This document shows positions 42,395-58,596 of a stretch of DNA of 64,000 nucleotides, piece by piece (the first letter of the stretch is position 1; every line of letters starts with the position of its first letter). Under the pieces are notes generated by a model. That model saw nothing but the letters and a program-made list of their open reading frames with translations, was not told the origin of the DNA and did no database searches. This DNA is from Candidatus Omnitrophota bacterium. Its GTDB lineage: Bacteria; Omnitrophota; Gorgyraeia; Gygaellales; Profunditerraquicolaceae. Where the stretch lies: NCBI GenBank assembly GCA_903852325.1, contig CAINQO010000080.1:2732-66731 (forward strand), in the 5' to 3' direction. A program made the translations under genes and the position numbers.

Positions 42395-42415
42395 TCCGCC
42401 ATCTCCTTTTACAAA

Positions 42416-45046: not shown

Positions 45047-45961
45047 TTACACTCCCAAATGAATATGCTTGGTAATTAAACACGCCGGCGTAACATCAAA
45101 AGCCGGGTAATAAGCTTTTACTTCTTTAGGGGCTAACCGCACGCCCTGATAAATTTTTAGCTCATCATCCGGCCGGATCTCGATTTGAATCTCCTGGCCG
45201 GTTTTCAATCTGGAAGGCGGAGGGCAAATCACAAAAAACGGGATTTTAAAATATTTCGCCACTACCGCGATCTGATAAGTCCCGATCTTATTGGCAATAT
45301 CCCCGTTTAAAGTCAAATGGTCGGCCCCGACAATGATTTTAGTCACTTTCCCCAGGGAAAGTAAATACGCCACCATATTGTCCGTAATGATCGTTACCTC
45401 AAATCCGGCGCGCATCAATTCCCAGGCAGTCAGCCGGGAACCCTGCAGATAAGGCCGGGTCTCAGTAGCGTAAAAGCTGACTGTCTTACCCTGCTCTTTG
45501 GCAATCTGAGCGATCAAGGGCAACAGGCCGCTGATATTACAGTGAGTAAGGATCACATCCCCGTCGCTAAGCAGCCCGGCGGTTTCTTTGGCCTGCTCAA
45601 TGCGTTTGGCCTTGAGCATCTCTAAAAATCCCAGAATGCTTTTCTCCAGGGGCGCCCCGCTCTTCTCCCATCCCAAAACCATATCGGTAAGGAACTTAAA
45701 GGAAAGGGTCGGCCGGGTAGCGTTGATCGCCGCGGCGACCTGGCTTAAATCTTTCTTCTGCCGCTTGCTCAACAGAAAGGTGTACATCACCAAAAGCACC
45801 TGCCCTACCGCGCGAGTCTTCATTTCTTTGATCGCCCGGCAGGCTTGCAAATAATTCCTGGCCTTTATATAGGTAAGTTTCTGCGGCAATTTCGTTTCAT
45901 CTAAAATATAAAGCGTATTGCCTTTTAACTGTATCGGCCAAAATAAGGGAGAGAATTTCAT
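45047..45961 (-). CDS. eIF-2B-family sugar-phosphate isomerase (methylthioribose-1-phosphate isomerase MtnA-like)
   Basis: GADHLTLNGDIANKIGTY...IPFFVICP signature of the MtnA/eIF2B family. Confidence 0.6.
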   Translation of the reverse strand: MKFSPLFWPIQLKGNTLYILDETKLPQKLTYIKARNYLQACRAIKEMKTRAVGQVLLVMYTFLLSKRQKKDLSQVAAAINATRPTLSFKFLTDMVLGWEKSGAPLEKSILGFLEMLKAKRIEQAKETAGLLSDGDVILTHCNISGLLPLIAQIAKEQGKTVSFYATETRPYLQGSRLTAWELMRAGFEVTIITDNMVAYLLSLGKVTKIIVGADHLTLNGDIANKIGTYQIAVVAKYFKIPFFVICPPPSRLKTGQEIQIEIRPDDELKIYQGVRLAPKEVKAYYPAFDVTPACLITKHIHLGV

Positions 45962-45983
45962 AGTTTTTATATTCCCAATTGTG

Positions 45984-46733
45984 TCACTTTCCTTCTAATT
46001 TTTTAACTAAATCCAGGGCAATTTTAATTAAATTGCCTTCCGCCATATAATACAGCGGATTCATAAAACCCATTTCACCGGTAATCACATTATCACTTAC
46101 CGCTAATATCGAGCCGGCTTTGATATTGTAGGTCTGGCAAATGGTCAGCATCGTGGAAGAGACCATATCCACGGCCAGGGCGCCTTCCTTACGTTTGCCT
46201 TCCACCAGTTCCCGGGTCTCCCGCAATAAAGCGTCCGTAGTCCAGGCCTTACCGCGGTGCACATTTAAACCCATATCTTTAGCAATCTGGAAGAGAAGAT
46301 CAGAAATCTTCTTGTCGCTGATCGTCTTAAAATCCTTATCCACATAATACGGGGTCACTCCGTCGCCGCGGATCACTTCATCGACGACAAATAAATCCCC
46401 CACCTTAATATTTTCATCCATTGCCCCGCAGGTGCCCACGCGGATAATGTTCTGGATCCCCGCGTTGCACATGACTTCGGTGGTGATCGAGGTGTCAGTG
46501 GAAAATCTCCCGCCGTTAATCCCGGTGACCTTAATCCCCTCAAAGGTGCCAGTGTACATGGTGTATTCCATAAAAGAAAAATTCTTGATCGGGTTTTCCA
46601 GCTTTTTCATCAAAACATCCAGCCGGTCCCGGGGGCCGGGCACGATCGCGTACTTACCTACATCCTGAGGCCTTAACTGCACCATCGCGGTTAAATCTTT
46701 TCCCGTTAAATGAACATCTTTCTGCATTTGCAT
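45984..46733 (-). CDS. PNP/UDP family-1 nucleoside phosphorylase (purine/MTA phosphorylase-like)
   Basis: RVGTCGAM phosphate-binding block and the C-terminal AVDMVSSTML block of the DeoD/Udp/MtnP fold. 249 aa. Confidence 0.6.
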   Translation of the reverse strand: MQMQKDVHLTGKDLTAMVQLRPQDVGKYAIVPGPRDRLDVLMKKLENPIKNFSFMEYTMYTGTFEGIKVTGINGGRFSTDTSITTEVMCNAGIQNIIRVGTCGAMDENIKVGDLFVVDEVIRGDGVTPYYVDKDFKTISDKKISDLLFQIAKDMGLNVHRGKAWTTDALLRETRELVEGKRKEGALAVDMVSSTMLTICQTYNIKAGSILAVSDNVITGEMGFMNPLYYMAEGNLIKIALDLVKKLEGK

Positions 46734-46750
46734 GTGAATTCTCCCTTAAG

Positions 46751-47080
46751 TTACGCCCGGTACATAATGACGTTTGCTTTTTCCAATGTGATCAACCCCT
46801 CTTTAACCATACTGTCTAACTGCGGCAGGAACTGATTGATCTTCTCTTCGCTGTCCACAATCTCAATGATGATCGGCAGGTCTTCAGAAAGCCGCAATAA
46901 ATTAGCGGTGTGCATATGGCTTTTGCAGCCAAACCCCATAAACCCTTTGATCGCGGTTGCCCCGGCTAACCCGGTTTTTTTGGCCAAAAGAATGATTTCC
47001 TCATAAAGCGGCTTGCCGTTCCATTTATCAGCCTCCCCGATAAAAATCCTTAAAAGCTTGCCGTCCGCGGGTATCTTCAT
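46751..47080 (-). CDS. DUF190 (PII-like fold) protein, the usual partner of CrcB
   Basis: 109 aa with a LLRIFIGEADKW...GATAIKGFMGFG pattern. Its start overlaps the crcB stop. Confidence 0.7.
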   Translation of the reverse strand: MKIPADGKLLRIFIGEADKWNGKPLYEEIILLAKKTGLAGATAIKGFMGFGCKSHMHTANLLRLSEDLPIIIEIVDSEEKINQFLPQLDSMVKEGLITLEKANVIMYRA

Positions 47081-47451
47081 ATTATTTCTCCTAATAAACC
47101 ACCAATCCTGAATAATATAAGGCCCAAAACCACACTCACAAAAACATTGCTGAACGCGCGCATCGCCTGGCCGTTTTTCAGCAGGTTATCCGACTCAAAG
47201 ATCAAGGTCGAGAATGTCGTGAACGCACCGCAAAACCCGATCATTAATAGAATTTTAGCGTCCGGCCCAAGAATAAACTTTTTATCCGCTAAAGTAGCTA
47301 AAAACCCCAGGATAAAACATCCGCTGACATTGACCACCAGGGTTCCGTAGGGAAAACTTGTGCCGGCCAACCGATAAACAAAACCCCCTAATAAATACCG
47401 GGCAATTGTGCCGATCGAACCTCCGATAATTAAATTTAATAGTTTTATCAT
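47077..47451 (-). CDS. crcB: fluoride channel CrcB/Fluc
   Basis: 124 aa with four TM helices and the IGGSIGTIARY...GTLVVNVSGCFILG signature. Confidence 0.85.
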   Translation of the reverse strand: MIKLLNLIIGGSIGTIARYLLGGFVYRLAGTSFPYGTLVVNVSGCFILGFLATLADKKFILGPDAKILLMIGFCGAFTTFSTLIFESDNLLKNGQAMRAFSNVFVSVVLGLILFRIGGLLGEII

Positions 47452-47846
47452 ACTTTTTTAGCTAATTGCTTTTTTTCGAGTTTCTTAATTTGATCCCAAT
47501 TCCTGACGATCTGGCGTGCTGAGCTTACTTTAACCTTCCCAAAAACATGCGGGTGACGGCGTTTCAATTTCTTCACTAACCCATCAATCACATCCTCCAC
47601 ATCAAATCTGCCTGTTTTACTGGCGATCTGCGCATGAAACATTACCTGTAACAGAATATCGCCCAGCTCCTCCTGCATATTCGCCAGGTCGTTTTGCTTA
47701 ACGGCAAAGATAAATTCATCTACTTCTTCCCGCAGGTACTTTAGCAGTGTCTTGTGCGTTTGCTGCTTATCCCAAAGACAGCCATTGGGACCGTGTAGCG
47801 TTTGGAATAATTCTTTTAGCTCAATAAACTTAGTAGGCTTACTCAT
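47448..47846 (-). CDS. mazG: MazG-type nucleoside-triphosphate pyrophosphohydrolase (single-domain)
   Basis: Typical MazG EExxE/D acidic helices (LREEVDEFIFA...ELGDILLQV), the RRHPHVFG block and a length of 132 aa. Confidence 0.7.
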   Translation of the reverse strand: MSKPTKFIELKELFQTLHGPNGCLWDKQQTHKTLLKYLREEVDEFIFAVKQNDLANMQEELGDILLQVMFHAQIASKTGRFDVEDVIDGLVKKLKRRHPHVFGKVKVSSARQIVRNWDQIKKLEKKQLAKKV

Positions 47847-47976
47847 TAAAACAGTAGACAGTGTATGTAACTATATGCAATAACTAATTTTTTGAAACAA
47901 ATACGAGTAGTTGCTCCGTGAATATTTGTTATGAAACAAGACTGCTTACAATAGGTTACATAAACTGTCTACCTTA

Positions 47977-48888
47977 CTAAAGAGCAAATAACTTTCCCGC
48001 ATTCCCACCCAGGATGTTCTGTTTATCTTCCTGGGATAAATCTAAATCGTTAACCGCTTTGATCCCCGCGGCCACATCCTGCTTTGCCGGCCAGTCGCTT
48101 CCCCAAAGGATGCGTTTTGGCCCCATCAAATCTAAACTTAGCAAAAAATTGGCTTTAGTGGTATCTCCGCTGGTATCGACATAAATATTCTTGAAGTAAT
48201 CCGAGGGCAGTCCCTGCAGATCCTTAACAAAATTCATTTTGCGCAGCATCTGATAAGTTGCGTCGAAACGCTGTTTAAGATAGCAGATCGCCCCGCCGAA
48301 ATGGGCAAAAACAAATTTAACTTTCGGGTAGGTGCGGAAAATATCCGACATTAACAGCCTGCCTGCCGAAATCGTCGTATCGAAAACATATTCGATCACC
48401 GGGGTAAGCAGCGGGTCTTTTACTCGCTCATAGCCGATCGGGTTAACGATCTGGGAGTGCACGAAAACCGGCAGGTTCTTGCCTTGCGCTTCCTCATAAA
48501 CCGGCAGAAACATCTTATCGTCCAGGTAAATCCCGTTATAACTGGAAGCCAGAGACACCGCCTTAAATCCCAGCTCATCCGTCGCCCGATTCAATTCCTC
48601 CAACATATCGATGGAATTATCTACCGGCAGGACCGCCGCGCCGATAAACCGGTCCGGATATTTCTTTAAAATTTGGCCGACATTATCATTATAAAGATGG
48701 GCGACCTGGCTGATGCTCCCTAATTTTAAATGCGCGTCTGAGGTCGGATAGCTTAAGACCGCCCGCTGGATGCCGCTGGCATCCATGATCTTAAGCTGGG
48801 CTTCGATATCCCCCCAGCCCTTATGGAAAAAATGAGCGTTGGAGATTATCTCCTCCGGTAGCCAGTGGCTATGCGCGTCGATCAACAT
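47977..48888 (-). CDS. amidohydrolase-2 (TIM-barrel metal-dependent hydrolase/decarboxylase) family protein
   Basis: N-terminal IDAHSHW metal-ligand motif and conserved H/D positions of the ACMSD/LigI-type family. 303 aa. Confidence 0.6.
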   Translation of the reverse strand: MLIDAHSHWLPEEIISNAHFFHKGWGDIEAQLKIMDASGIQRAVLSYPTSDAHLKLGSISQVAHLYNDNVGQILKKYPDRFIGAAVLPVDNSIDMLEELNRATDELGFKAVSLASSYNGIYLDDKMFLPVYEEAQGKNLPVFVHSQIVNPIGYERVKDPLLTPVIEYVFDTTISAGRLLMSDIFRTYPKVKFVFAHFGGAICYLKQRFDATYQMLRKMNFVKDLQGLPSDYFKNIYVDTSGDTTKANFLLSLDLMGPKRILWGSDWPAKQDVAAGIKAVNDLDLSQEDKQNILGGNAGKLFAL

Positions 48889-49302
48889 TTAGTGGTCGGT
48901 GCTCCGTAAAATGCGCTTGGTCATTTCCTTTTCATAAAGCGCCTTGATCTGCGCCAGGAACCGGCGGCCGAATTCTTTAGCGATCAATTTTTCTATGGCA
49001 TTAAGCTTTACATCCAGGAAAATAAACTCGGTGTTGGTTTTTTGCCCCTTATATTTTAACTCCAGGCAGGCTTTTTCCTTGGCGGCGATATACTCCTGGA
49101 AATTATTCACGTGCTTTTCCAGCTCCGCTTTTTCATGCGGCAGATAAGCGCCCATAAGCGTATTTTCGATCTCCTGCAAAAGATCCTTATCGATATCCGT
49201 CTGGGTAAATTTGCGCTCGAATTTATCAAAAGCTTCTTTGGTAGTCTTGTACAACCAGATAAAGTAACGCTTCTTTAAATTCTTGGTGTCCTGATTATCC
49301 AT
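48889..49302 (-). CDS. hypothetical cytoplasmic protein (137 aa, helical)
   Basis: The ORF abuts the flanking genes with no gap. No recognisable motif. Confidence 0.35.
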   Translation of the reverse strand: MDNQDTKNLKKRYFIWLYKTTKEAFDKFERKFTQTDIDKDLLQEIENTLMGAYLPHEKAELEKHVNNFQEYIAAKEKACLELKYKGQKTNTEFIFLDVKLNAIEKLIAKEFGRRFLAQIKALYEKEMTKRILRSTDH

Positions 49303-49329
49303 CGTCTCTCCGCCTTTCCTAAAACTGCC

Positions 49330-49935
49330 TTACTTCTTGATCAACTCCACCGTATCAAAATAAAGGGTGCCCTTGGAAACGGGAAGCGGCTCAAACTGAA
49401 AGCTCTTGACCGGGAAATCGATCACCCCGTTTTTATCCGCATCCTGCGGCTGCCAATCGTCGCGGGCGATAAATTTATCAAAGCTCACTACGACCTTTTT
49501 CCATCCGGCAGTATCATCCTCGGTAATAAAACGGAACAGCTCTCCGCCGCTATCCTTAACGTCAAAAGCGATTTTAGCCTTGGAGTTGGTCCCGTAAACA
49601 TAAAAAGATATCCCGCTGTAATCCGTCCACTTGATCTCGGAGGGCTTCACCGTCCAGGTAGCATTTTTAGCATCCAGCCCTGAACCGCGGGCAATATACA
49701 TATAACCGCCACTCACCGCGTCATAAGCCGCCTTTAAGGACTGCTTGCCGGTATTTTTGATATCGGTAGCCGCGGTCACCTGCAAGCTGGAACCGTTGCC
49801 GGAACCAAAATCCACCGTGCCTTCGGCGCCGCCGGAAACCGCCATCTCAAAATCATCGAGTAAAAAATTATCCGCAAAACAAATCCCGCTTACCGCTAAA
49901 ATTAAAACTGCCGCGAGTAATCCTATCTTTTTCAT
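49330..49935 (-). CDS. secreted CIA30/CBM11-like beta-sandwich protein
   Basis: Signal peptide and strong RBS (TTAAGGAGAATAAAG). DDFE...W...ISFYVYG...WKKVVVSFDKF pattern of CIA30/CBM-like domains. Confidence 0.4.
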   Translation of the reverse strand: MKKIGLLAAVLILAVSGICFADNFLLDDFEMAVSGGAEGTVDFGSGNGSSLQVTAATDIKNTGKQSLKAAYDAVSGGYMYIARGSGLDAKNATWTVKPSEIKWTDYSGISFYVYGTNSKAKIAFDVKDSGGELFRFITEDDTAGWKKVVVSFDKFIARDDWQPQDADKNGVIDFPVKSFQFEPLPVSKGTLYFDTVELIKK

Positions 49936-49979
49936 CTTTATTCTCCTTAACTGATATTTTGTTTTTCTACCTACTGTTA

Positions 49980-50016
49980 CTTGCCCGGGTGCCGCGCAGA
50001 GGCGCGCACCGGGTAA
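49980..50016. repeat. pair of GC-rich hairpins sharing ACCCGGG cores between the SDR gene and the secreted-protein gene
   Basis: The stretch cccgggtgccgcgcagaggcgcgcaccgggtaatcctatttacccgggtg folds into two adjacent imperfect stems. No U-tract. Confidence 0.35.
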
Positions 50017-50018
50017 TC

Positions 50019-50795
50019 CTATTTACCCGGGTGTTGCTGTTTAAACGGAATTACCGGCGCAGTCCAGGGGGTTTGCTGATTGATCACGGAAATCTCCAGA
50101 GGGCAGACATTGGCCGGCACGGTTAAAGCAAAACGCATCGCGTCTTCTATCGCCTCTGTCCCCATTAAACGGGAAGTATCGCTGGTAATGTCTTTAAGTT
50201 TACCGGTTAAATCCGTATCCGTCACTCCCGGCAGGATCGAAGTGACCTTGATCCCGTGGTCGCGCAGCTCCCAAAACAATCCTTTGGAAAAAGCGCGCAA
50301 CCCCACTTTCAGAGAGCTGTAAACAATAAAGTTTCTCGGGACCGGGTCGACCAGGGTGGAACCGGAAACGATATTAATGATTGCCCCGTATTTTTGCTCC
50401 ATCATATCATTGATCACCAGGCGGATCAGGCGCACATAACCCAGGTAATTGGTGTGCGCCAGCTTCTCAAAATCCTCGATCGGCTGCTGGTTAAAAGGAT
50501 ACTGGGAAGAAACTCCGGCACAGTTGATCAGAATATCCACCTTGCCGAACTTTGCCTTGGCTTTATTCACCAGGTTCTCTAAGTCTTCAAGCTTGGTCAC
50601 GTCGCAGGGAACCGGCAATACCTGGACTTTATATTTAGCGGCAATCTCCTCCGCTGTTTCTTTTAACGGGCCTTCACCGCGGGCGCCGACAACCAGGTTT
50701 ATTCCCAGTCCTGCCGCGGTGCAAGCCAAGGCTTTGCCGATACCGCGGCTGGCTCCGGTAACAATCGCTACACGTCCTTTTAAATCCGTGCTCAT
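50019..50795 (-). CDS. short-chain dehydrogenase/reductase, putative ketoreductase of the PKS-like cluster
   Basis: TGASRGIG Rossmann motif, catalytic YSSLK, and an AAGGAGGA RBS before the ATG at 50795 (the ORF-track start 50837 was trimmed). Confidence 0.8.
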   Translation of the reverse strand: MSTDLKGRVAIVTGASRGIGKALACTAAGLGINLVVGARGEGPLKETAEEIAAKYKVQVLPVPCDVTKLEDLENLVNKAKAKFGKVDILINCAGVSSQYPFNQQPIEDFEKLAHTNYLGYVRLIRLVINDMMEQKYGAIINIVSGSTLVDPVPRNFIVYSSLKVGLRAFSKGLFWELRDHGIKVTSILPGVTDTDLTGKLKDITSDTSRLMGTEAIEDAMRFALTVPANVCPLEISVINQQTPWTAPVIPFKQQHPGK

Positions 50796-50860
50796 TGAAT
50801 CCTCCTTGCGTAGAGACACACACCGGCGTAATTCCACTAAACGCCGGGTGTTGTAGAATA

Positions 50861-51295
50861 TTATTTAGCTGCTTCAATTACTTTCTTAAAGATCAGCAAG
50901 TTGTCCTTGGAATGCTTATTGATGAAACCCTCCACCTGCTCATCGGAAAACTTGGCTTTGCTGTCCATTTTAAAATGCTGGATCCAGGTTAATTCTATCC
51001 CGTCGGCCTTGGGAGTATAAAGCCAGATGATCTTCATGTATTCAAAGGGGAATTTCGGGTCGAAGCGTTCCGAATAAGTAAAATAATTCTCCTTGAATAA
51101 CAGCCTCCAGGAAATCCAGGATTTATCCTCATCGTCGGTAAGCCGGAAGGTGATTTTATTGTCTTCTTTTTTTACAATCTCGGCTTTCTTGTATTCAGCG
51201 CCGAATAACTCTGTCCAGCGCGGGATGTCATTGGAAATATTGAACACTAAATCGTACGGCGCGTTGATAATGATTGAATTACAGGTATGTCCCAA
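50861..51295 (-). CDS. SRPBCC-fold protein (polyketide aromatase/cyclase-dehydrase-like, polyketide_cyc2 type)
   Basis: IIINAPYDLVFNISNDIPRW start typical of SRPBCC cyclases. The start was reassigned to the TTG at 51295, preceded by a perfect AAGGAGG, which removes the 67-nt overlap with the upstream gene. Confidence 0.6.
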   Translation of the reverse strand: MGHTCNSIIINAPYDLVFNISNDIPRWTELFGAEYKKAEIVKKEDNKITFRLTDDEDKSWISWRLLFKENYFTYSERFDPKFPFEYMKIIWLYTPKADGIELTWIQHFKMDSKAKFSDEQVEGFINKHSKDNLLIFKKVIEAAK

Positions 51296-51309
51296 TTTAA
51301 CCTCCTTTA

Positions 51310-52110
51310 TTAATCCAACAAAGCCACTACCCTCGCCCAGGCAGCACCGGTATTTTTGATGCGAATGGGAAAACATTGGATCTTAAATCCGTAATCCGGA
51401 AGCTTTTCCAGGTTAGCCAGCCTCTCGATATGGATAAATTCTTTTTTGCGTCCAAAAAAATGCGCCGGGTAAAAAGTCTTCGGGTCCCTGGTTTTGAGGA
51501 ATTCGGCGAGCATAAAACGGTAGGGCCGGTCGATCCCCATCGTGTCCACGCCGAAGATTTTTATCCCCTGCTCCAAAAGATATTCTATCGCCGAAGGATC
51601 TACTCCGGGGTAATCCGAGAAATATTTCGGTTTGCCGTACAGCTTATCGGCGCCGGTATGCAGTAAAACAATATCTAAAGGTTTAAGCCGGTAATTTATT
51701 TTGGTTAAAGCTTCCCGGATATCCTGCTCTTTAATTACTTCATTGGGTTTTTTATGCCGCATATCCAACTTAACCCCCGGTTGGAAACAATATTCCAGGG
51801 GGATTTCGTCGGCGGTTTTAGAAGGGCGGTTCTCCGATTGGGAACCGTAATGAAAGGAATAATCCAGGTGCGTGCCGACATGCACCGGGGCGTGCACAAT
51901 TTCCAGGGAGAGGAATTCTTCGTCGGGCAGCTCTTCCTTTTTAATGATCCGCTTTCCCAGCGCGTATTTGATCTTACCGGAAAGGGTCTTGCCCATGATC
52001 ACCCGGTTAAACTTTTCCACCCCGGCTTTATGGGTTACCCTTTCGATCGCCACTTTATGCACTTCAAAGGCGGTCTCATCAATGGGTAAGCTCAAATCGA
52101 TTATGGTCAC
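51310..52110 (-). CDS. cyclase-family protein (PF04199; kynurenine-formamidase-like metal hydrolase / putative polyketide cyclase)
   Basis: HVGTHLDYSFHYG matches the HxGTHxDxPxH signature of the family. Confidence 0.7.
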   Translation of the reverse strand: MTIIDLSLPIDETAFEVHKVAIERVTHKAGVEKFNRVIMGKTLSGKIKYALGKRIIKKEELPDEEFLSLEIVHAPVHVGTHLDYSFHYGSQSENRPSKTADEIPLEYCFQPGVKLDMRHKKPNEVIKEQDIREALTKINYRLKPLDIVLLHTGADKLYGKPKYFSDYPGVDPSAIEYLLEQGIKIFGVDTMGIDRPYRFMLAEFLKTRDPKTFYPAHFFGRKKEFIHIERLANLEKLPDYGFKIQCFPIRIKNTGAAWARVVALLD

Positions 52111-52163
52111 CCGGCCTTCTCCTTATTTATCCAGCCTAGCTTCTTCTTAGGTTACAGGAAAAC

Positions 52164-52400
52164 TTACTTAGTTAATTTTTGGTCGATATTGCTGACAATA
52201 TCGTTGATCGTGCAGTTTTTGGTGATCTCTTTGGGGCTAAGCTTGACCCCGAAAGATTTTTCCAAAGCGATAACCGACTCCACCATTTCCGTAGAATCCA
52301 CCCCGATGCTGTCGATTAAAGTAGAGGCGTCTTTTAATTCCTCGATTTTTACTTTTAATAAATTGGCCAGCACTTCTTTTACTTTGTTTTTAGTGTCCAT
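52164..52400 (-). CDS. acyl carrier protein
   Basis: 78-aa acidic four-helix protein with a GVDSTE phosphopantetheine-attachment motif (GxDS). Confidence 0.7.
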   Translation of the reverse strand: MDTKNKVKEVLANLLKVKIEELKDASTLIDSIGVDSTEMVESVIALEKSFGVKLSPKEITKNCTINDIVSNIDQKLTK

Positions 52401-52443
52401 TAATCCTCCCTACCTACTCACTGCTATCTACCCGCTACTGTTG

Positions 52444-53904
52444 TTATATTTGCACTTCCCCCTTGGTCGCGGCGGCTTCCCATTTGCCTACCCCGGCCAT
52501 GACATCCTGGAAACAGAGCTTGGCCAAAGGATCGAAGTTGCTTTCCATGATCCGGTTGATCCTTCCGGGCTTGGAGAAAAACTCGCGCATGCACCAGGAA
52601 CCCAACCTGCCCAGGTCCTCGGTAGTCAGGTGGTCCGTGGGGATTACCGGATGCAGAAAATCCCACTGGCTGAAATCCACCTTTTTCGGGTCGATCCAGT
52701 GTTTCTTTAAAGCGATCCTCCACATCGGAGAATTCGGGGCGGGGGTCACGTAGCCGACCCACAACACATCCGGATCCACCTGGTCGGTAAATTCAAAACG
52801 CTGCTTAACGATCTCTTCGGTATCATAGTCAAACCCCATCATGATGTCAGCGACGATGGCGATGTCATTTCTCCTAAACATGGCGATGGTCTGCTTGATC
52901 TGGTCGATGGTAATACCTTTAGCGATCCTCTTTAACTCCGACTGCGTGGTGACTTCGATACCGAAAACCCCCATAAATAAACCCTGCTCCTTCATCAACG
53001 GCAGGATGGATTCGCAATTGACCCAGTCGATTGCCCGGCCCAAAGAAACCCATTTGATCGGGTTATTCGAAGCTTTTTTCAACTCGCAAAACTTTTGCAC
53101 TCTTTTGGGATCGACATTAAAATTATCATCCTGGATGACAACCACCTTAACCCCGTATTTGCGGTGCAGCAGGTTAAGTTCTTCCATTACCCTTTCCGGG
53201 GATTTAGCGCGCCATTTCAAAAAATCCGAAGGAGAGCGCGGGTCAAACTGGTCCCACTCATAACAAAAAGTACAGGCGGAAGGGCAGCCGCGGGAAGTAA
53301 CCATATCCACGAACGGCTTCCAATAAGTATGCCCGACATATTTATCCATCGGGAAAAGATCGTAGGCCGGAAGAGGAAGCTTGTCCAAATCTTCCATCAA
53401 CGGCTTATGCGGCCCCATGACGATCTGCCCGTCGATGCGGCTGGTGACCCCGCCCACATCTTTCAGTGGCGTATTTTTATCGATCGCCTCGATCAGGTCT
53501 CCGAATGATTCCTCTTCCCCCATGACCACAAAATCAACCGCGGGAATTTCTTCCAGGGTCGGCACCGGCATCGCCGAATACCATAAACCGCCCAGGATGA
53601 TCTTTGTCCTCGGCAGCGCTTTTTTGATCCCGATCGCCGCGTCCTTAAAATGCCGCAGCACCCCGTATCCGCCGTAACCGTGGAGCTGTTCACCCATCAC
53701 GACAATATCTGGGTTTTTCTCTTTGACCTGCTCGATCAACTGCTCCATAGGAATCTGGTCGGCTTTACCGTCGATAACCGCGACATCCTCATACCCTCTT
53801 TCCCGCACATAAGCCGCCCAATGGGCGTACAGCTGGTTTGGAGAACGGTGGATTCCATGGGTCGCCCAGGCACCTACTTTCGGCATTACAAATAAGATTT
53901 TCAT
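52444..53904 (-). CDS. cobalamin-binding (class B) radical SAM enzyme
   Basis: N-terminal B12-binding-like Rossmann region (MKILFVMPKVG...) and an SRGCPSACTFC CxxxCxxC cluster. 486 aa. Confidence 0.75.
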   Translation of the reverse strand: MKILFVMPKVGAWATHGIHRSPNQLYAHWAAYVRERGYEDVAVIDGKADQIPMEQLIEQVKEKNPDIVVMGEQLHGYGGYGVLRHFKDAAIGIKKALPRTKIILGGLWYSAMPVPTLEEIPAVDFVVMGEEESFGDLIEAIDKNTPLKDVGGVTSRIDGQIVMGPHKPLMEDLDKLPLPAYDLFPMDKYVGHTYWKPFVDMVTSRGCPSACTFCYEWDQFDPRSPSDFLKWRAKSPERVMEELNLLHRKYGVKVVVIQDDNFNVDPKRVQKFCELKKASNNPIKWVSLGRAIDWVNCESILPLMKEQGLFMGVFGIEVTTQSELKRIAKGITIDQIKQTIAMFRRNDIAIVADIMMGFDYDTEEIVKQRFEFTDQVDPDVLWVGYVTPAPNSPMWRIALKKHWIDPKKVDFSQWDFLHPVIPTDHLTTEDLGRLGSWCMREFFSKPGRINRIMESNFDPLAKLCFQDVMAGVGKWEAAATKGEVQI

Positions 53905-53917
53905 TTAATTCCTCCCT

Positions 53918-55147
53918 TTATACTTTCTCAACCACCAGCACTGAATTAATTCCTCCTCTACCGCGGGAAATAATCAAGGATTTGTTTACCTTATATTCTT
54001 TTGCTTCTTTAGCCACAAAATTCAGCCCGCTTGAAACCGGCTGGTCTAAATTCAATGTCGGCGGGACCAGGCCATACTCCATCACCTTTAAGGCAATGAT
54101 CATATCAACGGCTCCGGATGCCCCTAATAAATTACCGAACATGGATTTAGGGCAGCTGACGGGTATTTTCTTTAGGTTGTTTCCAAAAACCGATTCCAGC
54201 GCTTTGATCTCGGAATTATCCCAAAGCTCGACCGCTAATCCGTCCAAACTGATATAACCGATCTCTTCAGGATTGGCGGCGGCGTCATTCAGCGCCATCC
54301 TGATCGCCCGCGCCAGCTCTTTTCCGTCGGCAGCGCAGTTGATCCGGTCCACCCCGTCGCAGGAAGTGCCGTAACCGCTGATCAGCCCCAAGATCTTGGC
54401 GTTGCGGGATTGCACCCGCGCAATGTTCTCCATCACCACGATCCCGGCTCCCTCCCCGATAACAAAACCGCTGCGTTTAGAGTCAAAAGGCCGGTAAGCC
54501 CCCTGCGGATCCTGATTATTCTTCGAGAGGGTTCCATAAGTATTGCAGCACAACAGCGCGTAAGGAGTAACCGGGGCTTCCATTCCTCCGCCTAAGATCA
54601 TATTTAATTTATTTTTGGCTAAGACTTTCCTGGCATAACCTAAAGCCATCAGGGAGCTGGCCCGGTCACTGACCACGGTCTTACTAAATCCTTTAATTCC
54701 GTAATAAATAGAGACCTGCCCCTGGGGAGCCGCCGGAAACCAGGCGCTGGCCATGTAAGGAGAAACCCCCTCCCGGCCTTCCAGATAAAGGTCCCTTAAT
54801 TCGGTTTCGGCGTAAAGCCAGCCGCCGATGGCGTTTCCTAAAAATATTCCCACCAGATTGGGGTCTTCGTTCTTAATATCGATCCCGGCATCCTGCAACG
54901 CCGACTCGGCAGCGACTAAAGCCATGTGCGAAAAGGCGTCGATCTTTTTAAGCAGGCGCTCGGAGATATGGCTGTATTTTTCCAGGTCATCGATCTGCCC
55001 GGCGATATGCGAAGGGTAAAGGCTGGCGTCAAAACGGGTGATTTCTTTAATAAAGGAGCGGCCGCTTTTAATATTCGCCCAGAATTGCCGTTTTCCTATT
55101 CCTGAAGGGGTGACTACCCCGATCCCGGTTATAGCTATTTTTTCCAC
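53918..55147 (-). CDS. ketosynthase-fold protein lacking all three catalytic residues (chain-length-factor / KS-beta-like)
   Basis: KS fold throughout. The active-site Cys is replaced (VVSDRASSL instead of TACSS). The first His is Tyr (GYGTS) and the second His is Asn (KSMFGNLLGASGA). Confidence 0.7.
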   Translation of the reverse strand: MEKIAITGIGVVTPSGIGKRQFWANIKSGRSFIKEITRFDASLYPSHIAGQIDDLEKYSHISERLLKKIDAFSHMALVAAESALQDAGIDIKNEDPNLVGIFLGNAIGGWLYAETELRDLYLEGREGVSPYMASAWFPAAPQGQVSIYYGIKGFSKTVVSDRASSLMALGYARKVLAKNKLNMILGGGMEAPVTPYALLCCNTYGTLSKNNQDPQGAYRPFDSKRSGFVIGEGAGIVVMENIARVQSRNAKILGLISGYGTSCDGVDRINCAADGKELARAIRMALNDAAANPEEIGYISLDGLAVELWDNSEIKALESVFGNNLKKIPVSCPKSMFGNLLGASGAVDMIIALKVMEYGLVPPTLNLDQPVSSGLNFVAKEAKEYKVNKSLIISRGRGGINSVLVVEKV

Positions 55148-55217
55148 CCAGCTCTTCCTTTCTATACCTTATATCTATCTATTATACCCGCCCCCCAAAG
55201 GAAGGGCTGGGTCCAGC

Positions 55218-56480
55218 TTATCCACCGTACCTTTTGAAAACGATCGAAGAATGTATCCCGGAAAAACCGCTTGAGGTTTTCATGATCATATTCACTTTTT
55301 TGGCGATCGCCTGGTTCGGAATATAATACAAATCGCACTGCGGGTCTTTTTCCTCCTGGTTTATCGTCGGAGGCAGGATGTTTTTCTCAAAAATCATCGA
55401 AACAATGGTCATCTCCACGGCATTGGCCGCCGCCAGGGGATGGCCGATCATCGATTTCAGGGAGCTGATCGGCAGTTTGTAAGCGTAATCCCCGAAAATC
55501 GCCTTGTAAGCATTGGTTTCGAAAATATCGTTCATCCGGGTGCTGGATCCGTGGGCATTGATATAATCGATCTCCGTGGGCTTGACCCCGGAATCTTTTA
55601 GGGCCAAAGCAATGCAGGTTTCCATTGCCCGTCCGTCCGAAGGAAGGTCGGTCATATGAAAAGCGTTGCAGCTGGTGCCGAAACCTAAAATTTCACAATA
55701 GATCGGAGCGTTGCGTTTTAAGGCGTGGCTTAATTCTTCCAGGACTAAAATCCCCGCCCCTTCTCCGAGCACAAACCCGTCCCGCTTATTATCGAAAGGC
55801 CGGGAAGCTTTCTGCGGTTCATCATTATGTACGGAAAGGACATTGACCACATCAAAAGCCCCGAAGGTGATCGGGGTAAGCGGAGCTTCTGCCGCGCCGC
55901 AGATCATCACATCCTGCTCCCCGTCCTGGATACTCTCCAGGCCGAACCCCAATGAATCCGTGCCGGCGGTGCAGCCGGTAGAAATAGTATTGCAGCTTCC
56001 TTTTAAACCGAAACGCGCGCTTAACTCTATCGAGGGGGTATTAAACATCGCCGCATCATATAAATCCGGGCGGACCATCGCCGGATTGATCGGTTTTTTC
56101 CCGTCGTCGGTGACCAAAGCGAACTCTTCTTCCATGTATTTGGTGCCACAGATGGCATTAGCCAGGCAAACCCCGATCCGCTCGGGATCCTCTTTAGAGA
56201 AATCCAATTTGCTGTCTTCAACCGCCATTTTTCCGGCGGCCACCCCGAATTGCACGTAACGGTCCATGCGCATCGCCTCTTCATGGCTCAATCCCAGTTT
56301 AAAAGGATCGAAATCCCTGACCTCGGCGGCGATTTTAGTATTAAAAACCGAGACGTCAAAGCCGTCCACCCGGCGTATACCAGATTTTCCTCCGGAAAAA
56401 CCCTCCCAGGCGTTTTTCTTTCCGATGCCGTTGGGGGAGATCACCCCGATCCCCGTAACTACCACGCGTCTTTTTTCCAT
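55218..56480 (-). CDS. beta-ketoacyl synthase with an intact Cys-His-His triad (KS-alpha / FabF-like)
   Basis: TGCTAGTDS active-site Cys. The two catalytic His are in AHGSST and SMIGHPLAAA. 420 aa. Confidence 0.85.
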   Translation of the reverse strand: MEKRRVVVTGIGVISPNGIGKKNAWEGFSGGKSGIRRVDGFDVSVFNTKIAAEVRDFDPFKLGLSHEEAMRMDRYVQFGVAAGKMAVEDSKLDFSKEDPERIGVCLANAICGTKYMEEEFALVTDDGKKPINPAMVRPDLYDAAMFNTPSIELSARFGLKGSCNTISTGCTAGTDSLGFGLESIQDGEQDVMICGAAEAPLTPITFGAFDVVNVLSVHNDEPQKASRPFDNKRDGFVLGEGAGILVLEELSHALKRNAPIYCEILGFGTSCNAFHMTDLPSDGRAMETCIALALKDSGVKPTEIDYINAHGSSTRMNDIFETNAYKAIFGDYAYKLPISSLKSMIGHPLAAANAVEMTIVSMIFEKNILPPTINQEEKDPQCDLYYIPNQAIAKKVNMIMKTSSGFSGIHSSIVFKRYGG

Positions 56481-56496
56481 ATTTATTTAAACTCAA

Positions 56497-56622
56497 AATC
56501 CTAAATTCTAAATCCTAAACAAATCCAAAATCCAAAACTCAAATTTTCTAAACCGCCGTTTTGGGTTTTAAATTTAGAGTTTTGGGTTTGTTTAGAGTTT
56601 CGTGTTTAGAGTTTAGGGTTTT
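56497..56622. repeat. long AT-rich imperfect inverted repeat (~50-nt arms built from TCCTAAA/TCCAAAA-like units) between the tandem-domain gene and KS-alpha
   Basis: Left arm: ctaaattctaaatcctaaacaaatccaaaatccaaaactcaaattt. Right arm: aaatttagagttttgggtttgtttagagtttcgtgtttagagtttagg. The central loop contains ccgccg. Confidence 0.5.
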
Positions 56623-57218
56623 GTTTTATCCTCCTCTACTCTTTTGACTTTAAAAATAATATTGCCACCATCAGGGCAGGTCACCGTATCGATGGAATTC
56701 GGATCAGGCATGAAGAAAAACTTTGCCCCGAAATTCAGGGCGAACAGCGCCGGGAAAGCGGTGTGAAAAGCCGCCCCGCAGAATCCCGGGATGCATTTTA
56801 ACCCCTGGGTTTCCCATTTGTCCCCGACTTTATAGCCAAAAGCGCATTTGCCTTTGGCCTGGACCACCTCTAAAACCATTTTTTTAGGGTTAGGCCCCTT
56901 ATGATTGGGGTCGCGCGGCAATGCTTCCACTTTGCCTTGCTTATCCAGGATTTCGGCTTTAAATTCCAGCTTTCCTCCGTCCGGGCAGGTCACCAAAAGC
57001 GAACGCTGGTTGTCCCGGAACCCGAATTTTGCGCCGAAGCTTAAGGCGTAGGCAACCGGAAAAAGCGCGTGCGCCAGGCCGAGGCAAAAATGCTTGGGCC
57101 CGTGGGTGAAGTCTTCTAAAATGATCTCGTCCCCGATCTTGTAACCGTGGTAACATTCACCCATTACCTGGGTCACCGTAAGTTTTAGCCGCGGGAAGGG
57201 GGTTTTTACTTCATCCAT
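56613..57218 (-). CDS. protein made of two tandem ~95-aa Cys/His-containing domains (TIGR04076-like)
   Basis: The blocks G(E/K)C..GYK.GD, F(C/H)..A(F/L)..(AL)F.L.FGAKF and VTCPDGG..F recur in both halves. Confidence 0.4.
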   Translation of the reverse strand: MDEVKTPFPRLKLTVTQVMGECYHGYKIGDEIILEDFTHGPKHFCLGLAHALFPVAYALSFGAKFGFRDNQRSLLVTCPDGGKLEFKAEILDKQGKVEALPRDPNHKGPNPKKMVLEVVQAKGKCAFGYKVGDKWETQGLKCIPGFCGAAFHTAFPALFALNFGAKFFFMPDPNSIDTVTCPDGGNIIFKVKRVEEDKTKP

Positions 57219-57220
57219 TT

Positions 57221-58225
57221 TTACACCAGCTCCTTAGTCCTCTGGATCAATTCTTCTTTACTAAAAAACCGGTGCCCGGTTTCTACCTGGTGCACCATTT
57301 CCACCAAAACTTTATTTAAAGGCGCTTGCAGTTTGTTCTCCTCTGCCAGCCGCACGAACTCGCCGTTTAAGTAATCTATCTCGGTAACTTTACCGCGCAT
57401 AATGCTCTGCAGGATCGAGCCGTACAAGGGATCCTTGCTTAAATTATGCATCATCCCAGAGAAAATTTCCGCCGCGTGCTCGCTGGGCATGGTCGTAAAC
57501 TTGGTCAGGTTTTCGACCGGAAATCCGGGAAGGGAGACCAGATCAATACCGAGCTTATCGAAAATTTCAAAAGCCTCTTTCCAGATCGCGATGCTGATCC
57601 GGGCAATCGCAATATCCGCGAACACTTCCTGCATGCTCTTGCCAATGATCGCCGGCAAACAGTTGTTAGCGTTCACGAAGATCTTTAAATACTTCATCCC
57701 TTTAAGCTCCTGGGTGACCTGCGTGGAAAAAGCTTTATCCAGGAGCAGTCCGACGGAAAACATCTCCGGGGTGGGATGAGGGTTGAAAATGCTGCCCAAT
57801 ATCCAGTCCCCTTCGAAATTATGCACCACTTTGCCGCTTTCCAGGTTGGTGGCGCCGAACATCACAATACTGGAAATAATTTTTTCCGCCGGTAAATATT
57901 TAGCCGCCAGCTTGTCCGCCTGCACCCCGTTTTGCGTGGTCAGCAGCAGGGAGTTCTGGATCAGGTGCGCGCAATCGGAAAGCGCCCCCTCGATATCCTG
58001 GGTTTTCACGGTTAAAATTACCAGCTCCGGAAGATAGTTCAGGGTCTCGGAAATGCTTACCCGCACCAGATGGTTTCCGCGGACCCCGGAAATAGAGATC
58101 CCATGGTCATGGATGGCGTTCACGGTCGAGCCGCGGCCGACCAAAGTGACCTCTTCCCCTTTTTCCTTAAGATAACCGGCGACCAGGCAACCGATCGCTC
58201 CGCTTCCGATAACCGCGATGCGCAT
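57221..58225 (-). CDS. ketopantoate reductase (ApbA/PanE) family NAD(P)H oxidoreductase
   Basis: N-terminal MRIAVIGSGAIGCLVAGYL Rossmann motif and a C-terminal ApbA_C-like helical domain. 334 aa. Confidence 0.7.
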   Translation of the reverse strand: MRIAVIGSGAIGCLVAGYLKEKGEEVTLVGRGSTVNAIHDHGISISGVRGNHLVRVSISETLNYLPELVILTVKTQDIEGALSDCAHLIQNSLLLTTQNGVQADKLAAKYLPAEKIISSIVMFGATNLESGKVVHNFEGDWILGSIFNPHPTPEMFSVGLLLDKAFSTQVTQELKGMKYLKIFVNANNCLPAIIGKSMQEVFADIAIARISIAIWKEAFEIFDKLGIDLVSLPGFPVENLTKFTTMPSEHAAEIFSGMMHNLSKDPLYGSILQSIMRGKVTEIDYLNGEFVRLAEENKLQAPLNKVLVEMVHQVETGHRFFSKEELIQRTKELV

Positions 58226-58494
58226 TATTGTTTACCGTTTTTAGGATAACCGTATTTTTTGTAATCAAACCCGTTTTGCTCTAAGAGGCGCAGCATCATG
58301 CTGTAAAACGGGGAAGGGACATCCGAAAAAAAAGCCGCCACGACATCCTGTTCTCCCACCTCAGTGGCGCTGCGTTTGGCGGCCAGCTCGGCGGCCTTTT
58401 GCCGGACCACCGATTCAGTGATATGGCGGTGGAATACGGGAATTTTGGAGATCAATACCTTGAATTTATTTTCGGTTCCGGTTTCCCAGTTCAT
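58225..58494 (-). CDS. small PCP_red-like domain protein (resembles the C-terminal domain of protochlorophyllide reductase subunit B)
   Basis: W..KFKVLISKIPVFHRHITESVVRQKAAELAAKRSATEV..QDVVAAFF resembles the PF08369 pattern (KIPFFVR...E..AR..G...VT). Confidence 0.35.
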   Translation of the reverse strand: MNWETGTENKFKVLISKIPVFHRHITESVVRQKAAELAAKRSATEVGEQDVVAAFFSDVPSPFYSMMLRLLEQNGFDYKKYGYPKNGKQ

Positions 58495-58515: not shown

Positions 58516-58546
58516 TATAGTAAAATTTTACTATAATTTTAGTCAA
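58516..58546 (-). promoter_or_regulatory. sigma70 promoter (TTGACT-18-TACTAT) for the biosynthetic operon, overlapped by a perfect 20-bp palindrome (TATAGTAAAATTTTACTATA, 58516-58535) that is a candidate PadR operator
   Basis: -35 at 58546-58541 and -10 at 58522-58517 on the minus strand. An AAGAGG RBS lies upstream of the ATG at 58494. The palindrome covers the -10 and spacer. Confidence 0.55.
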
Positions 58547-58596
58547 GATAAACTCCTTTGTCAAGCAAATTATCCTGGAATTTGCCTATGGAAAAT

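What the first reader, a model, noticed from the sequence alone, without database searches (positions are those of the whole stretch)
53918..55147. Ketosynthase paralogue with Cys, His and His all substituted (CLF-like), paired with an intact KS
The KS-fold protein at 53918-55147 aligns throughout with FabF-type enzymes. The nucleophile position reads SDRASSL instead of TACSS. The first catalytic His is Tyr (GYGTS) and the second is Asn (GNLLGASGA). The upstream KS retains TGCTAG, AHGSST and GHPLAAA. This is the KS-alpha/KS-beta relationship of type II PKSs and aryl-polyene systems. In those systems the inactive partner sets chain length or primes by decarboxylation. Arg/Ser at the nucleophile position instead of the usual Gln would be a variant CLF.
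Basis: seen in the sequence. Interest (0 to 1): 0.55.

Follow-up and report, generated by a model that had tools for sequence, protein, structure and literature searches.

The report
Arginine-type chain-length factor, Omnitrophota PKS
The gene encodes the catalytically dead partner subunit (chain-length factor) of an aromatic polyketide synthase that is conserved like a housekeeping operon in uncultured Omnitrophota bacteria; its odd active-site arginine is normal for the non-actinomycete branch of this family.

Summary
The ORF at 53918-55147 (minus strand, 409 aa) is a full-length FabF-like ketosynthase in which all three catalytic residues are replaced. Cys is Arg162 and the second His is Asn339. 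These three residues are invariant in 120 homologues, so this is not a sequencing or frame error.

The upstream KS (55218-56480) keeps Cys170/His310/His347 and is closest to actinorhodin KS and AntD. The pair sits in an operon with an ACP, a TcmN/WhiE-type aromatase/cyclase, a PF04199 cyclase and an SDR. In a tree the protein groups with actinorhodin CLF and other Cys-less partners (100% bootstrap).

It is therefore a genuine chain-length factor. The Asp-Arg motif at the nucleophile position is not unique. It occurs in Clostridium (probable clostrubin ClrB), Ktedonobacter, Archangium and Paenibacillus CLFs, and in 15 of 23 CLF-type sequence clusters sampled. This makes it a new member of a known kind.

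The context is more interesting. The collinear operon occurs in at least 80 Omnitrophota species. It contains a BchE-like B12-radical SAM enzyme and a TIGR04076 domain protein, and is as conserved as AccA. Its product is unknown.

The parts
53918..55147 (-). KS-beta / chain-length factor, 409 aa, GTG start. Cys->Arg162, His->Asp302, His->Asn339; Lys334 retained.
54662..54667 (-). Codons for Asp161-Arg162 (GAC CGG), at the position of FabF Ala-Cys (the nucleophile)
54242..54244 (-). Codon for Asp302, at the position of the first catalytic His. Actinorhodin CLF has Asp here too.
54131..54133 (-). Codon for Asn339, at the position of the second catalytic His
54371..54373 (-). Codon for Tyr259 of GYGTS. 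It aligns with the conserved Tyr of FabF GYG and is not a triad residue.
55218..56480 (-). KS-alpha, 420 aa, intact Cys170/His310/Lys342/His347. Best solved relatives are actinorhodin KS and AntD.
52444..53904 (-). B12-binding radical SAM enzyme, BchE-like (TIGR02026 2e-61, below cut-off), lying between CLF and ACP. Most conserved gene of the operon (mean 90% identity).
52164..52400 (-). Acyl carrier protein, 78 aa, GVDS motif
51310..52110 (-). PF04199 'putative cyclase' family protein
50861..51376 (-). SRPBCC aromatase/cyclase of the TcmN/WhiE type. The listed ORF overlaps the cyclase gene by 67 nt, and homologues are about 144 aa, so the true start is probably internal.
50019..50837 (-). Short-chain dehydrogenase, FabG-like (candidate ketoreductase)
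56613..57218 (-). Tandem TIGR04076-family domain protein, 201 aa, with 3 invariant Cys per repeat, directly upstream of KS-alpha
57221..58225 (-). ApbA/PanE-type (ketopantoate reductase-like) oxidoreductase
58225..58494 (-). Small DUF2621/PCP_red-like protein, first gene of the conserved block
58536..58564 (-). Promoter-like site (TTGACA-17-TAAAAT, 11 of 12 matches) in the gap between padR and the first operon gene. This is a consensus match only.
47977..48888 (-). Amidohydro_2 (PF04909) protein, syntenic with the PKS in Omnitrophota, in the MAG loci L001 and L003, and in the Clostridium locus

Best explanation
The gene encodes the KS-beta subunit (chain-length factor) of a minimal aromatic type II polyketide synthase.

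Proposed mechanism (inferred from the family):
- It folds like FabF and pairs with the intact KS-alpha encoded 70 nt upstream.
- KS-alpha performs all acyl transfer and decarboxylative Claisen condensations on the dedicated ACP.
- KS-beta contributes the other half of the dimer, much of the ACP docking surface and the far wall of the poly-beta-keto tunnel, and so sets chain length.

State of its own active site:
- The site is abolished. It has Arg162 for Cys, Asp302 and Asn339 for the two His, and Arg395/Arg397 where FabF has the Phe-Gly-Phe gating motif.
- These charged residues most likely fill and rigidify the vestigial pocket.
- Without Gln and without the His pair, decarboxylative priming by this subunit is unlikely. 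The starter is then made by KS-alpha or supplied otherwise.

Downstream steps: the chain is folded by the TcmN/WhiE-type aromatase/cyclase and the PF04199 cyclase. It is then tailored by the SDR, the B12-radical SAM enzyme, the ApbA-type reductase and the Amidohydro_2 enzyme.

Shown here: fold, substitutions, conservation, clade membership and operon composition. Inferred: heterodimer formation, tunnel role, lack of decarboxylase activity and the nature of the product.
For: - Full-length KS fold. Pfam PF00109 and PF02801 both match. FabF structures match at 2e-82 and actinorhodin CLF 1tqy_B at 8e-76. The AF2 model has pLDDT 88.5 and pTM 0.91, with TM about 0.9 to FabF and to 1tqy chains A and B.
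- Triad replaced by R162/D302/N339, invariant in 120 of 120 homologues.
- Actinorhodin CLF has Gln/Asp/Arg at the same three positions. It also shares the AWF motif (W136/F137) and the RGR motif in place of FabF's F-G-F.
- NJ tree. All Cys-less partners, including act CLF, the Clostridium and Ktedonobacter CLFs and this protein, form one clade (100% of 300 bootstraps). The upstream KS groups with act KS and AntD (98%).
- The upstream KS has an intact triad. Its best solved relatives are act KS (1.5e-111) and AntD (2.2e-110).
- The operon has an ACP, an SRPBCC protein matching WhiE (2.6e-24) and TcmN (7e-23) ARO/CYC, and a PF04199 cyclase and SDR.
- The same KS-CLF-[ACP]-cyclase-SRPBCC...Amidohydro_2 order occurs in the Clostridium beijerinckii locus.
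- KS-beta is under strong purifying selection: mean 82.6% identity over 80 species, versus KS-alpha 85.9% and AccA 79.9%.
- The monomer model is disordered only at residues 109-136. This segment includes the positions aligned with the act CLF gate residues F109/T112/F116 (PMC9006962), as expected for a surface that orders against a partner.
Against: - No direct evidence of heterodimer formation or of a tunnel. AlphaFold-Multimer was not available and model coordinates could not be inspected.
- By sequence score and by fold the protein is slightly closer to FabF than to act CLF, so the CLF assignment rests on the tree, shared motifs and context.
- Absolute conservation of Arg162/Asp302/Asn339 is stronger than a purely space-filling role requires, and could hide a function.
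- A salt-bridge idea (Arg162 paired with Asp/Glu at the His1 position) got no support from co-occurrence. Asp/Glu is present in 10 of 15 Arg-type clusters and 5 of 8 non-Arg clusters.
- The SDR is generic FabG-like, not specifically actKR-like.
Confidence: 0.8

Rival explanations
1. KS-beta is not inert. The conserved Arg162/Asn339/Lys334 pocket binds malonyl-ACP and decarboxylates it to the acetyl primer, a functional analogue of the Gln of actinomycete CLFs and KSQ domains. Alternatively it has another catalytic or ligand-binding role.
For: - Arg162, Asp302 and Asn339 are invariant in 120 of 120 homologues.
- The Asp-Arg pair at the nucleophile position recurs across phyla, which suggests selection on the pocket itself.
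- Lys334 of the KS active site is retained.
- From general knowledge, Asn replaces the second His in the Cys-His-Asn triad of KAS III enzymes, where it still supports decarboxylation.
Against: - Decarboxylation in KS enzymes depends on the His pair. The first His is Asp here, and the gating Phe is replaced by Arg.
- The Cys->Gln mimicry that creates decarboxylase activity (PMC9006962) has no counterpart in a charged Arg.
- The His positions vary between Arg-type CLF lineages (H/H, D/H, E/H, D/N, A/N), which argues against a single conserved chemistry.
Confidence: 0.1
2. The KS pair belongs to a fatty-acid-like or lipid pathway, for example what genome-mining tools call 'ladderane-type' clusters (KS plus B12-radical SAM), and not to an aromatic polyketide synthase.
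For: - A B12-radical SAM gene lies between KS-beta and the ACP, and accA lies about 2.6 kb upstream.
- Operon conservation is housekeeping-like.
- A metagenome survey reports 'ladderane' BGC calls in Omnitrophota (PMC9902471).
- KS-beta scores slightly better against FabF than against act CLF.
Against: - The SRPBCC protein matches WhiE/TcmN aromatase/cyclases at 1e-23 to 1e-24, and a PF04199 cyclase follows the ACP.
- No dehydratase or enoyl reductase is present in the operon.
- KS-alpha groups with act KS and AntD at 98% bootstrap.
- The radical SAM enzyme scores only 70.9 bits against the ladderane-type model TIGR04072 (cut-off 360) and is BchE-like instead.
- The core gene order matches the Clostridium aromatic PKS locus.
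Confidence: 0.07
3. The substitutions are artefacts of a frameshift, a sequencing error or a decaying pseudogene.
For: None found.
Against: - The ORF is uninterrupted and aligns full length.
- The three residues are identical in 120 independent homologue clusters, and the gene recurs in 80 species genomes.
- Mean identity is 82.6%, comparable to AccA.
Confidence: 0.01

Closest known systems
Actinorhodin chain-length factor (ActI-ORF2, PDB 1TQY chain B)
   Same: - Same fold and length.
- Encoded downstream of a KS-alpha with an intact triad.
- Catalytic Cys lost.
- Asp at the first-His position (FADGAG versus SLDGLA).
- Lys retained.
- AWF motif and RGR in place of the gating F-G-F.
- Same 100%-bootstrap clade.
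   Different: - Gln at the nucleophile position in act CLF versus Arg162 (preceded by Asp161) here.
- Arg versus Asn at the second-His position.
- About 35% identity only.
- The residues aligned with the act gate F109/T112/F116 are W110/A113/L117.
Clostridium beijerinckii / C. puniceum CLF (P0132/P0290). Very probably ClrB of the clostrubin PKS; the identification is inferred from organism and locus.
   Same: - Asp-Arg at the nucleophile position (ADRASG).
- An acidic residue at the first-His position.
- 42% identity.
- Same local gene order: KS, CLF, then PF04199 cyclase, SRPBCC and later Amidohydro_2.
- A TIGR04076 domain is present in the cluster.
- Anaerobic host.
   Different: - The second His is retained in the Clostridium protein (Asn here).
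- TIGR04076 is fused to the ACP there, but is a separate tandem protein upstream of KS-alpha here.
- The Clostridium locus has no B12-radical SAM gene within 10 kb.
Ktedonobacter racemifer CLF-like protein (P0293; a K. racemifer KS-CLF was expressed in E. coli, bioRxiv 10.1101/2020.05.18.102780)
   Same: SDRASG motif at the nucleophile position, same CLF clade, 40% identity.
   Different: Keeps both His residues (R/H/H). Aerobic Chloroflexota host.
AntE, CLF of the Photorhabdus anthraquinone PKS (PDB 6SMO/6SMP)
   Same: A non-actinomycete CLF that also lacks the Gln; Asp is reported at that position (PMC6638757). Its partner AntD is the second-best solved relative of the KS-alpha here.
   Different: AntE itself did not appear among the 60 listed PDB sequence hits of KS-beta. 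It has a different residue at the nucleophile position.
FabF (KAS II), e.g. Bacillus subtilis 4LS5, Listeria 5SXO
   Same: Highest-scoring solved sequences and indistinguishable fold.
   Different: FabF is a homodimer with a Cys-His-His triad and gating Phe. All of these residues are replaced here.

Membership tests
Type II PKS chain-length factor (KS-beta) | Full-length thiolase/KAS II fold | tested here: met
   Pfam PF00109 and PF02801; FabF 2e-82 and act CLF 8e-76; AF2 pTM 0.91 with TM about 0.9 to FabF and 1TQY.
Type II PKS chain-length factor (KS-beta) | Catalytic Cys absent, so no condensation activity is expected | tested here: met
   Arg162 at the Cys position, invariant in 120 of 120 homologues. 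Loss of activity itself was not assayed.
Type II PKS chain-length factor (KS-beta) | Encoded next to, and downstream of, a KS-alpha with an intact Cys-His-His triad | tested here: met
   KS-alpha at 55218-56480 has C170/H310/H347 and lies 70 nt upstream on the same strand. The order KSa>KSb holds in all 80 Omnitrophota loci where both genes are on the contig.
Type II PKS chain-length factor (KS-beta) | Phylogenetic placement with established CLFs rather than with FabF or KS-alpha | tested here: met
   In the NJ tree with 300 bootstraps, all Cys-less partners including act CLF form one clade at 100%. Only a distance method was used, on 34 sequences.
Type II PKS chain-length factor (KS-beta) | Conserved Gln at the nucleophile position (hallmark of actinomycete CLFs) | tested here: not met
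   Arg162. This feature is not universal in the family. Arg occurs in the Clostridium, Ktedonobacter, Archangium and Paenibacillus CLFs, and Asp is reported in AntE (PMC6638757). In this sample 15 of 23 CLF-type clusters carry Arg.
Type II PKS chain-length factor (KS-beta) | Minimal-PKS context: dedicated ACP plus aromatase/cyclases | tested here: met
   ACP at 52164-52400; SRPBCC matches WhiE and TcmN ARO/CYC at 1e-23 to 1e-24; PF04199 cyclase.
Type II PKS chain-length factor (KS-beta) | Forms a heterodimer with KS-alpha and determines chain length | not testable with these tools
   No multimer modelling and no coordinates were available. The only hint is that residues 109-136 of the monomer model have pLDDT below 50.
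Highly reducing / aryl-polyene type II PKS CLF (ApeC, Iga12) | Cluster contains dehydratases and KRs for polyene formation, and the KS partner is closest to polyene KSs | tested here: not met
   No dehydratase was found in the operon. KS-alpha matches the ishigamide KS 6kxd_A at 4e-71, against 1.5e-111 for act KS.
Decarboxylating KSQ-type / Gln-CLF priming subunit | Gln in place of Cys, with a His pair able to stabilise the enolate | tested here: not met
   Arg, Asp and Asn occupy the three positions.
Housekeeping FabF (TIGR03150) | Score above the equivalog cut-off and a Cys-His-His triad | tested here: not met
   363.6 bits against a cut-off of 493.75, and the triad is replaced.

The most novel reading that the evidence does not exclude
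The KS-beta may be one component of a previously uncharacterised, vertically inherited anaerobic aromatic-polyketide pathway with a physiological role, for example a redox-active polyphenol or quinone-like metabolite made without O2, rather than a sporadic antibiotic cluster.

Observations that leave this open:
- The operon (DUF2621-like, ApbA reductase, tandem TIGR04076, KS-alpha, Arg-type KS-beta, BchE-like B12-radical SAM, ACP, two cyclases, SDR, Amidohydro_2) is collinear in at least 80 Omnitrophota species and as conserved as AccA.
- Simpler versions occur in Nitrospirota and deltaproteobacterial MAGs.
- A 5'-deoxyadenosine/MTA-salvage-like trio lies beside it.
- It contains a TIGR04076 domain that is fused to the ACP in the Clostridium PKS locus. 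That domain would then be a new PKS accessory component.
Probability: 0.3. Interest if true: 0.7.

Novelty: new member of a known kind. Interest (0 to 1): 0.35.

Why it matters
For the finding itself the value is mainly corrective. The textbook rule 'CLF = Gln at the Cys position' does not hold for the FabF-proximal, non-actinomycete branch, where Asp-Arg is the usual state. Genome-mining rules and mechanistic models of chain initiation based on Gln therefore do not transfer to that branch.

The larger point is the context. This type II PKS is not patchy. It is a deeply conserved operon of an uncultured phylum of anaerobes, with an embedded B12-radical SAM enzyme and an uncharacterised Cys-rich domain that recurs with this kind of KS/CLF pair. 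If the product has a core physiological role, it would be an unusual example of an aromatic polyketide acting as near-primary metabolism. It would also give a tractable entry point, by heterologous expression, into Omnitrophota biochemistry.

Tried and rejected
1. Sequence or frame error: rejected. The three residues are invariant in 120 homologues.
2. Tyr259 (GYGTS) as the first-His position: rejected by alignment to FabF and to act KS/CLF. Asp302 is the true position.
3. An Arg162 to Asp/Glu302 salt bridge supported by co-occurrence: not supported. Asp/Glu at that position occurs in 10 of 15 Arg-type clusters and 5 of 8 non-Arg CLF clusters. Coordinates of the AF2 model were not available to measure distances.
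4. Fold search to separate CLF from FabF: uninformative. FabF, act KS and act CLF all give TM 0.87-0.90.
5. Predicting chain length from the act CLF gate positions (W110/A113/L117): rejected as unreliable. The Clostridium CLF, placed in a C20 clade (PMC7693217), also has Trp at the first gate position.
6. Literature search for a described 'Arg-type' CLF, for PDB entry 9S5H and for TIGR04076: nothing relevant found. A catalogue paper lists Candidatus Omnitrophica among phyla with KS-CLF pairs but does not characterise them (PMC10132072), and its held supplements do not mention them.
7. Ladderane-type radical SAM: rejected. TIGR04072 scores 70.9 bits against a cut-off of 360.
9. Riboswitch or other RNA elements near the operon: none. 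Only two tRNAs were found elsewhere in the window.
10. SDR as a specific actKR homologue: not supported. The best hits are generic FabG and gluconate dehydrogenase.
Full report
OBSERVATION.

The window has a long run of minus-strand genes between about 44 kb and 62 kb. The ORF at 53918-55147 (minus strand, GTG start preceded by GGAAGAG, 409 aa) matches both ketosynthase Pfam domains over their whole length. It aligns end to end with FabF structures (5sxo 2e-82, 1j3n 5e-81) and with actinorhodin CLF 1tqy_B (8e-76).

Reading the HMMER alignments gives the triad positions:
- The FabF nucleophile motif V-T-A-C-A-T aligns with V-S-D-R-A-S, so Cys is replaced by Arg162.
- The first catalytic His (Y-I-N-A-H-G-T-S) aligns with Y-I-S-L-D-G-L-A, so it is replaced by Asp302.
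- The second His (K-S-M-T-G-H-T-L-G) aligns with K-S-M-F-G-N-L-L-G, so it is replaced by Asn339.
- The active-site Lys is kept as Lys334.

That Tyr (Tyr259) aligns with the conserved Tyr of FabF's GYG motif and is not a triad position. Codon coordinates were checked.

The upstream gene (55218-56480, 420 aa) keeps Cys170, His310, Lys342 and His347, aligned with actinorhodin KS.

NOT AN ARTEFACT.

A search of 5.8 billion proteins returned more than 120 clusters at 82-100% identity. All that carry a name are from Candidatus Omnitrophota/Omnitrophica MAGs. In an alignment of these 120, Asp161, Arg162, Asp302 and Asn339 are invariant, and 54% of all columns are invariant. A scan of one genome per GTDB species found 124 stretches that encode a relative of the protein. 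The 80 loci retrieved are 76-90% identical to it.

WHAT IT IS.

Actinorhodin CLF has Gln/Asp/Arg at the three triad positions (VAEQAGG, FADGAG, TGRLYSG). The Asp at the first-His position is therefore shared with the textbook CLF.

Two further motifs are shared with act CLF and the other Cys-less partners but not with FabF or KS-alpha:
- A-W-F (Trp136/Phe137).
- R-G-R (Arg395-Gly-Arg397), where FabF has the F-G-F that includes the gating Phe.

I built a neighbour-joining tree of 34 sequences: this pair, the pairs from related loci, FabFs, act KS/CLF, AntD and stand-alone relatives from a 1.8-billion-protein representative search. All Cys-less partners, including act CLF and this protein, form one clade in 100% of 300 bootstraps. 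The upstream KS groups with act KS and AntD in 98%. The upstream KS also scores best against act KS (1.5e-111) and AntD (2.2e-110), ahead of any FabF.

The operon supplies the rest of an aromatic type II PKS:
- A 78-aa ACP with a GVDS motif.
- An SRPBCC protein matching WhiE (2.6e-24) and TcmN (7e-23) aromatase/cyclases.
- A PF04199 cyclase.
- A FabG-like SDR.

No dehydratase or enoyl reductase is present. This argues against an aryl-polyene or fatty-acid-like system. The protein is therefore a genuine KS-beta/CLF.

IS THE ARGININE SPECIAL?

No. Among the closest stand-alone relatives outside Omnitrophota, the Asp-Arg pair at the nucleophile position is the rule. Named examples include:
- The CLF of Clostridium beijerinckii/C. 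puniceum (ADRASG). This is very probably ClrB of the clostrubin PKS, which a published tree places in the 'ancestral' non-actinomycete CLF group (PMC7693217).
- Ktedonobacter racemifer (SDRASG).
- Archangium (CDRASG).
- Paenibacillus.
- A deltaproteobacterial MAG.

I clustered 176 stand-alone sequences at 60% identity. Arg is present in 15 of the 23 CLF-type clusters. The residues at the two His positions vary (D/N, D/H, E/H, H/H, A/N and others). AntE is reported to have Asp at this position (PMC6638757).

The Gln hallmark therefore belongs to the actinomycete branch, not to the family as a whole. I found no paper that discusses the Arg state. A catalogue of type II PKS clusters already lists Candidatus Omnitrophica among phyla with KS-CLF pairs, without further analysis (PMC10132072).

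HOW IT MOST LIKELY WORKS.

By analogy with solved KS-CLF heterodimers (review PMC9006962), KS-alpha carries out loading and condensation. KS-beta provides the second half of the dimer, most of the ACP contacts and the end of the substrate tunnel. These points are inferred here, not shown.

The AF2 monomer model is confident (pLDDT 88.5, pTM 0.91) except for residues 109-136. This segment aligns with the act CLF gate residues F109/T112/F116 (here W110/A113/L117). The pattern is what one expects of a surface that orders only against a partner, but it is only suggestive.

KS-beta has no Gln, neither His and no gating Phe. It is therefore unlikely to decarboxylate malonyl-ACP for priming, and the charged residues probably fill the vestigial pocket. 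I tested whether Arg at the Cys position co-occurs with Asp/Glu at the first-His position, as a salt bridge would predict. It does not do so preferentially: 10 of 15 against 5 of 8 clusters. The strict invariance of the three residues leaves room for a minority view that the pocket still binds or does something. I rate that at about 0.1.

Chain length cannot be read from the gate positions, because the Clostridium CLF (placed in a C20 clade) also has Trp at the first one.

CONTEXT.

tblastn of the window's proteins against the 80 species loci shows one collinear block wherever the contig is long enough. The order is: DUF2621/PCP_red-like, ApbA-type reductase, tandem TIGR04076, KS-alpha, KS-beta, B12-radical SAM, ACP, PF04199 cyclase, SRPBCC, SDR, a CBM11-like secreted protein, a 137-aa protein, Amidohydro_2. 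Further on come PNP_UDP_1, IF-2B-family and class II aldolase/SCP2 genes.

Mean identities across these loci are: radical SAM 90%, KS-alpha 86%, TIGR04076 85%, SDR 84%, KS-beta 83%, AccA 80%. This PKS is thus conserved like a housekeeping function.

Related loci share the core ApbA, TIGR04076, KS-alpha, KS-beta, ACP, cyclase and SRPBCC. They often add aldehyde:ferredoxin oxidoreductase, and some also carry Amidohydro_2, amine-oxidase-like genes and the same PNP/IF-2B/aldolase trio:
- L001/L002, whose CLF cluster includes members named Deltaproteobacteria.
- L003/L004, from unnamed MAGs.
- L086, from a Nitrospirota MAG.

The Clostridium locus has KS, CLF, cyclase, SRPBCC and Amidohydro_2 in the same order.

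The radical SAM enzyme is BchE-like (TIGR02026 2e-61, below cut-off). It is not the ladderane type (TIGR04072 70.9 bits against a cut-off of 360).

A promoter-like site with 11 of 12 matches lies between padR and the first gene of the block. The rest of the window is ordinary chromosomal context, including SecA, PrfB-like, LeuRS and Lnt, with two tRNAs and no riboswitch.

VERDICT.

The protein is a new member of a known kind: a chain-length factor of the non-actinomycete, Arg-type branch. As a single-gene finding it is of modest interest (0.35).

The most novel reading not excluded is that the whole operon is an uncharacterised, near-core anaerobic aromatic-polyketide pathway, with a B12-radical SAM tailoring step and a new ACP-associated domain. 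I give that about 0.3 probability, and an interest of about 0.7 if true.

Noticed in passing
[not shown]
   Followed up: partly
window 52444-53904 (-): A BchE-like B12-binding radical SAM enzyme is inserted between the CLF and the ACP of the minimal PKS. It is the most conserved gene of the operon (mean 90%, up to 97% identity across 65 species loci). Its reaction is unknown; O2-independent oxidation/cyclisation or C-methylation are possibilities.
   Followed up: partly
window 44048-46733 (-): PNP_UDP_1, IF-2B-family and class II aldolase/SCP2 genes sit downstream of the PKS, and are syntenic with it also in the MAG locus L001. From general knowledge the trio resembles a 5'-deoxyadenosine/methylthioadenosine salvage ('DHAP shunt') set. 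That would fit heavy use of a radical SAM enzyme.
   Followed up: no
window 44048-58494 (-) and loci L005-L084: The whole PKS operon is collinear in 80 Omnitrophota species genomes. KS-alpha (86%) and KS-beta (83%) are as conserved as the housekeeping AccA (80%). This is unusual for a secondary-metabolite cluster.
   Followed up: partly
window 46751-47846 (-): A DUF190/CrcB (fluoride channel) pair lies inside the conserved block and is found in only 11 of the 80 loci; it looks like a variable insertion between Amidohydro_2 and PNP. The adjacent MazG gene was not detected in any locus.
   Followed up: no
window 49330-49935 (-) and 48889-49302 (-): A signal-peptide-bearing CBM11-like protein (201 aa) and a 137-aa protein with no family lie between the SDR and Amidohydro_2. 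They are conserved in many but not all loci, and their role is unknown.
   Followed up: no
window 40874-43900 (-): An AMP-binding acyl-activating enzyme and an aldehyde dehydrogenase directly follow the block. ALDH is syntenic in several loci. Related non-Omnitrophota loci carry aldehyde:ferredoxin oxidoreductases instead. This hints at an aldehyde intermediate or a starter-unit activation step.
   Followed up: no
window 50861-51376 (-): The mechanical ORF for the SRPBCC cyclase overlaps the preceding cyclase gene by 67 nt. Homologues are about 144 aa and PDB matches start at residue 28-30, so the real start codon is probably internal.
   Followed up: no
homologue set (Omnitrophota-related cluster): A subgroup of 12 related KS-beta sequences has Asp-Ser / Asn / Asn instead of Asp-Arg / Asp / Asn at the three positions. 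The Arg is therefore not absolutely fixed even among close relatives.
   Followed up: no
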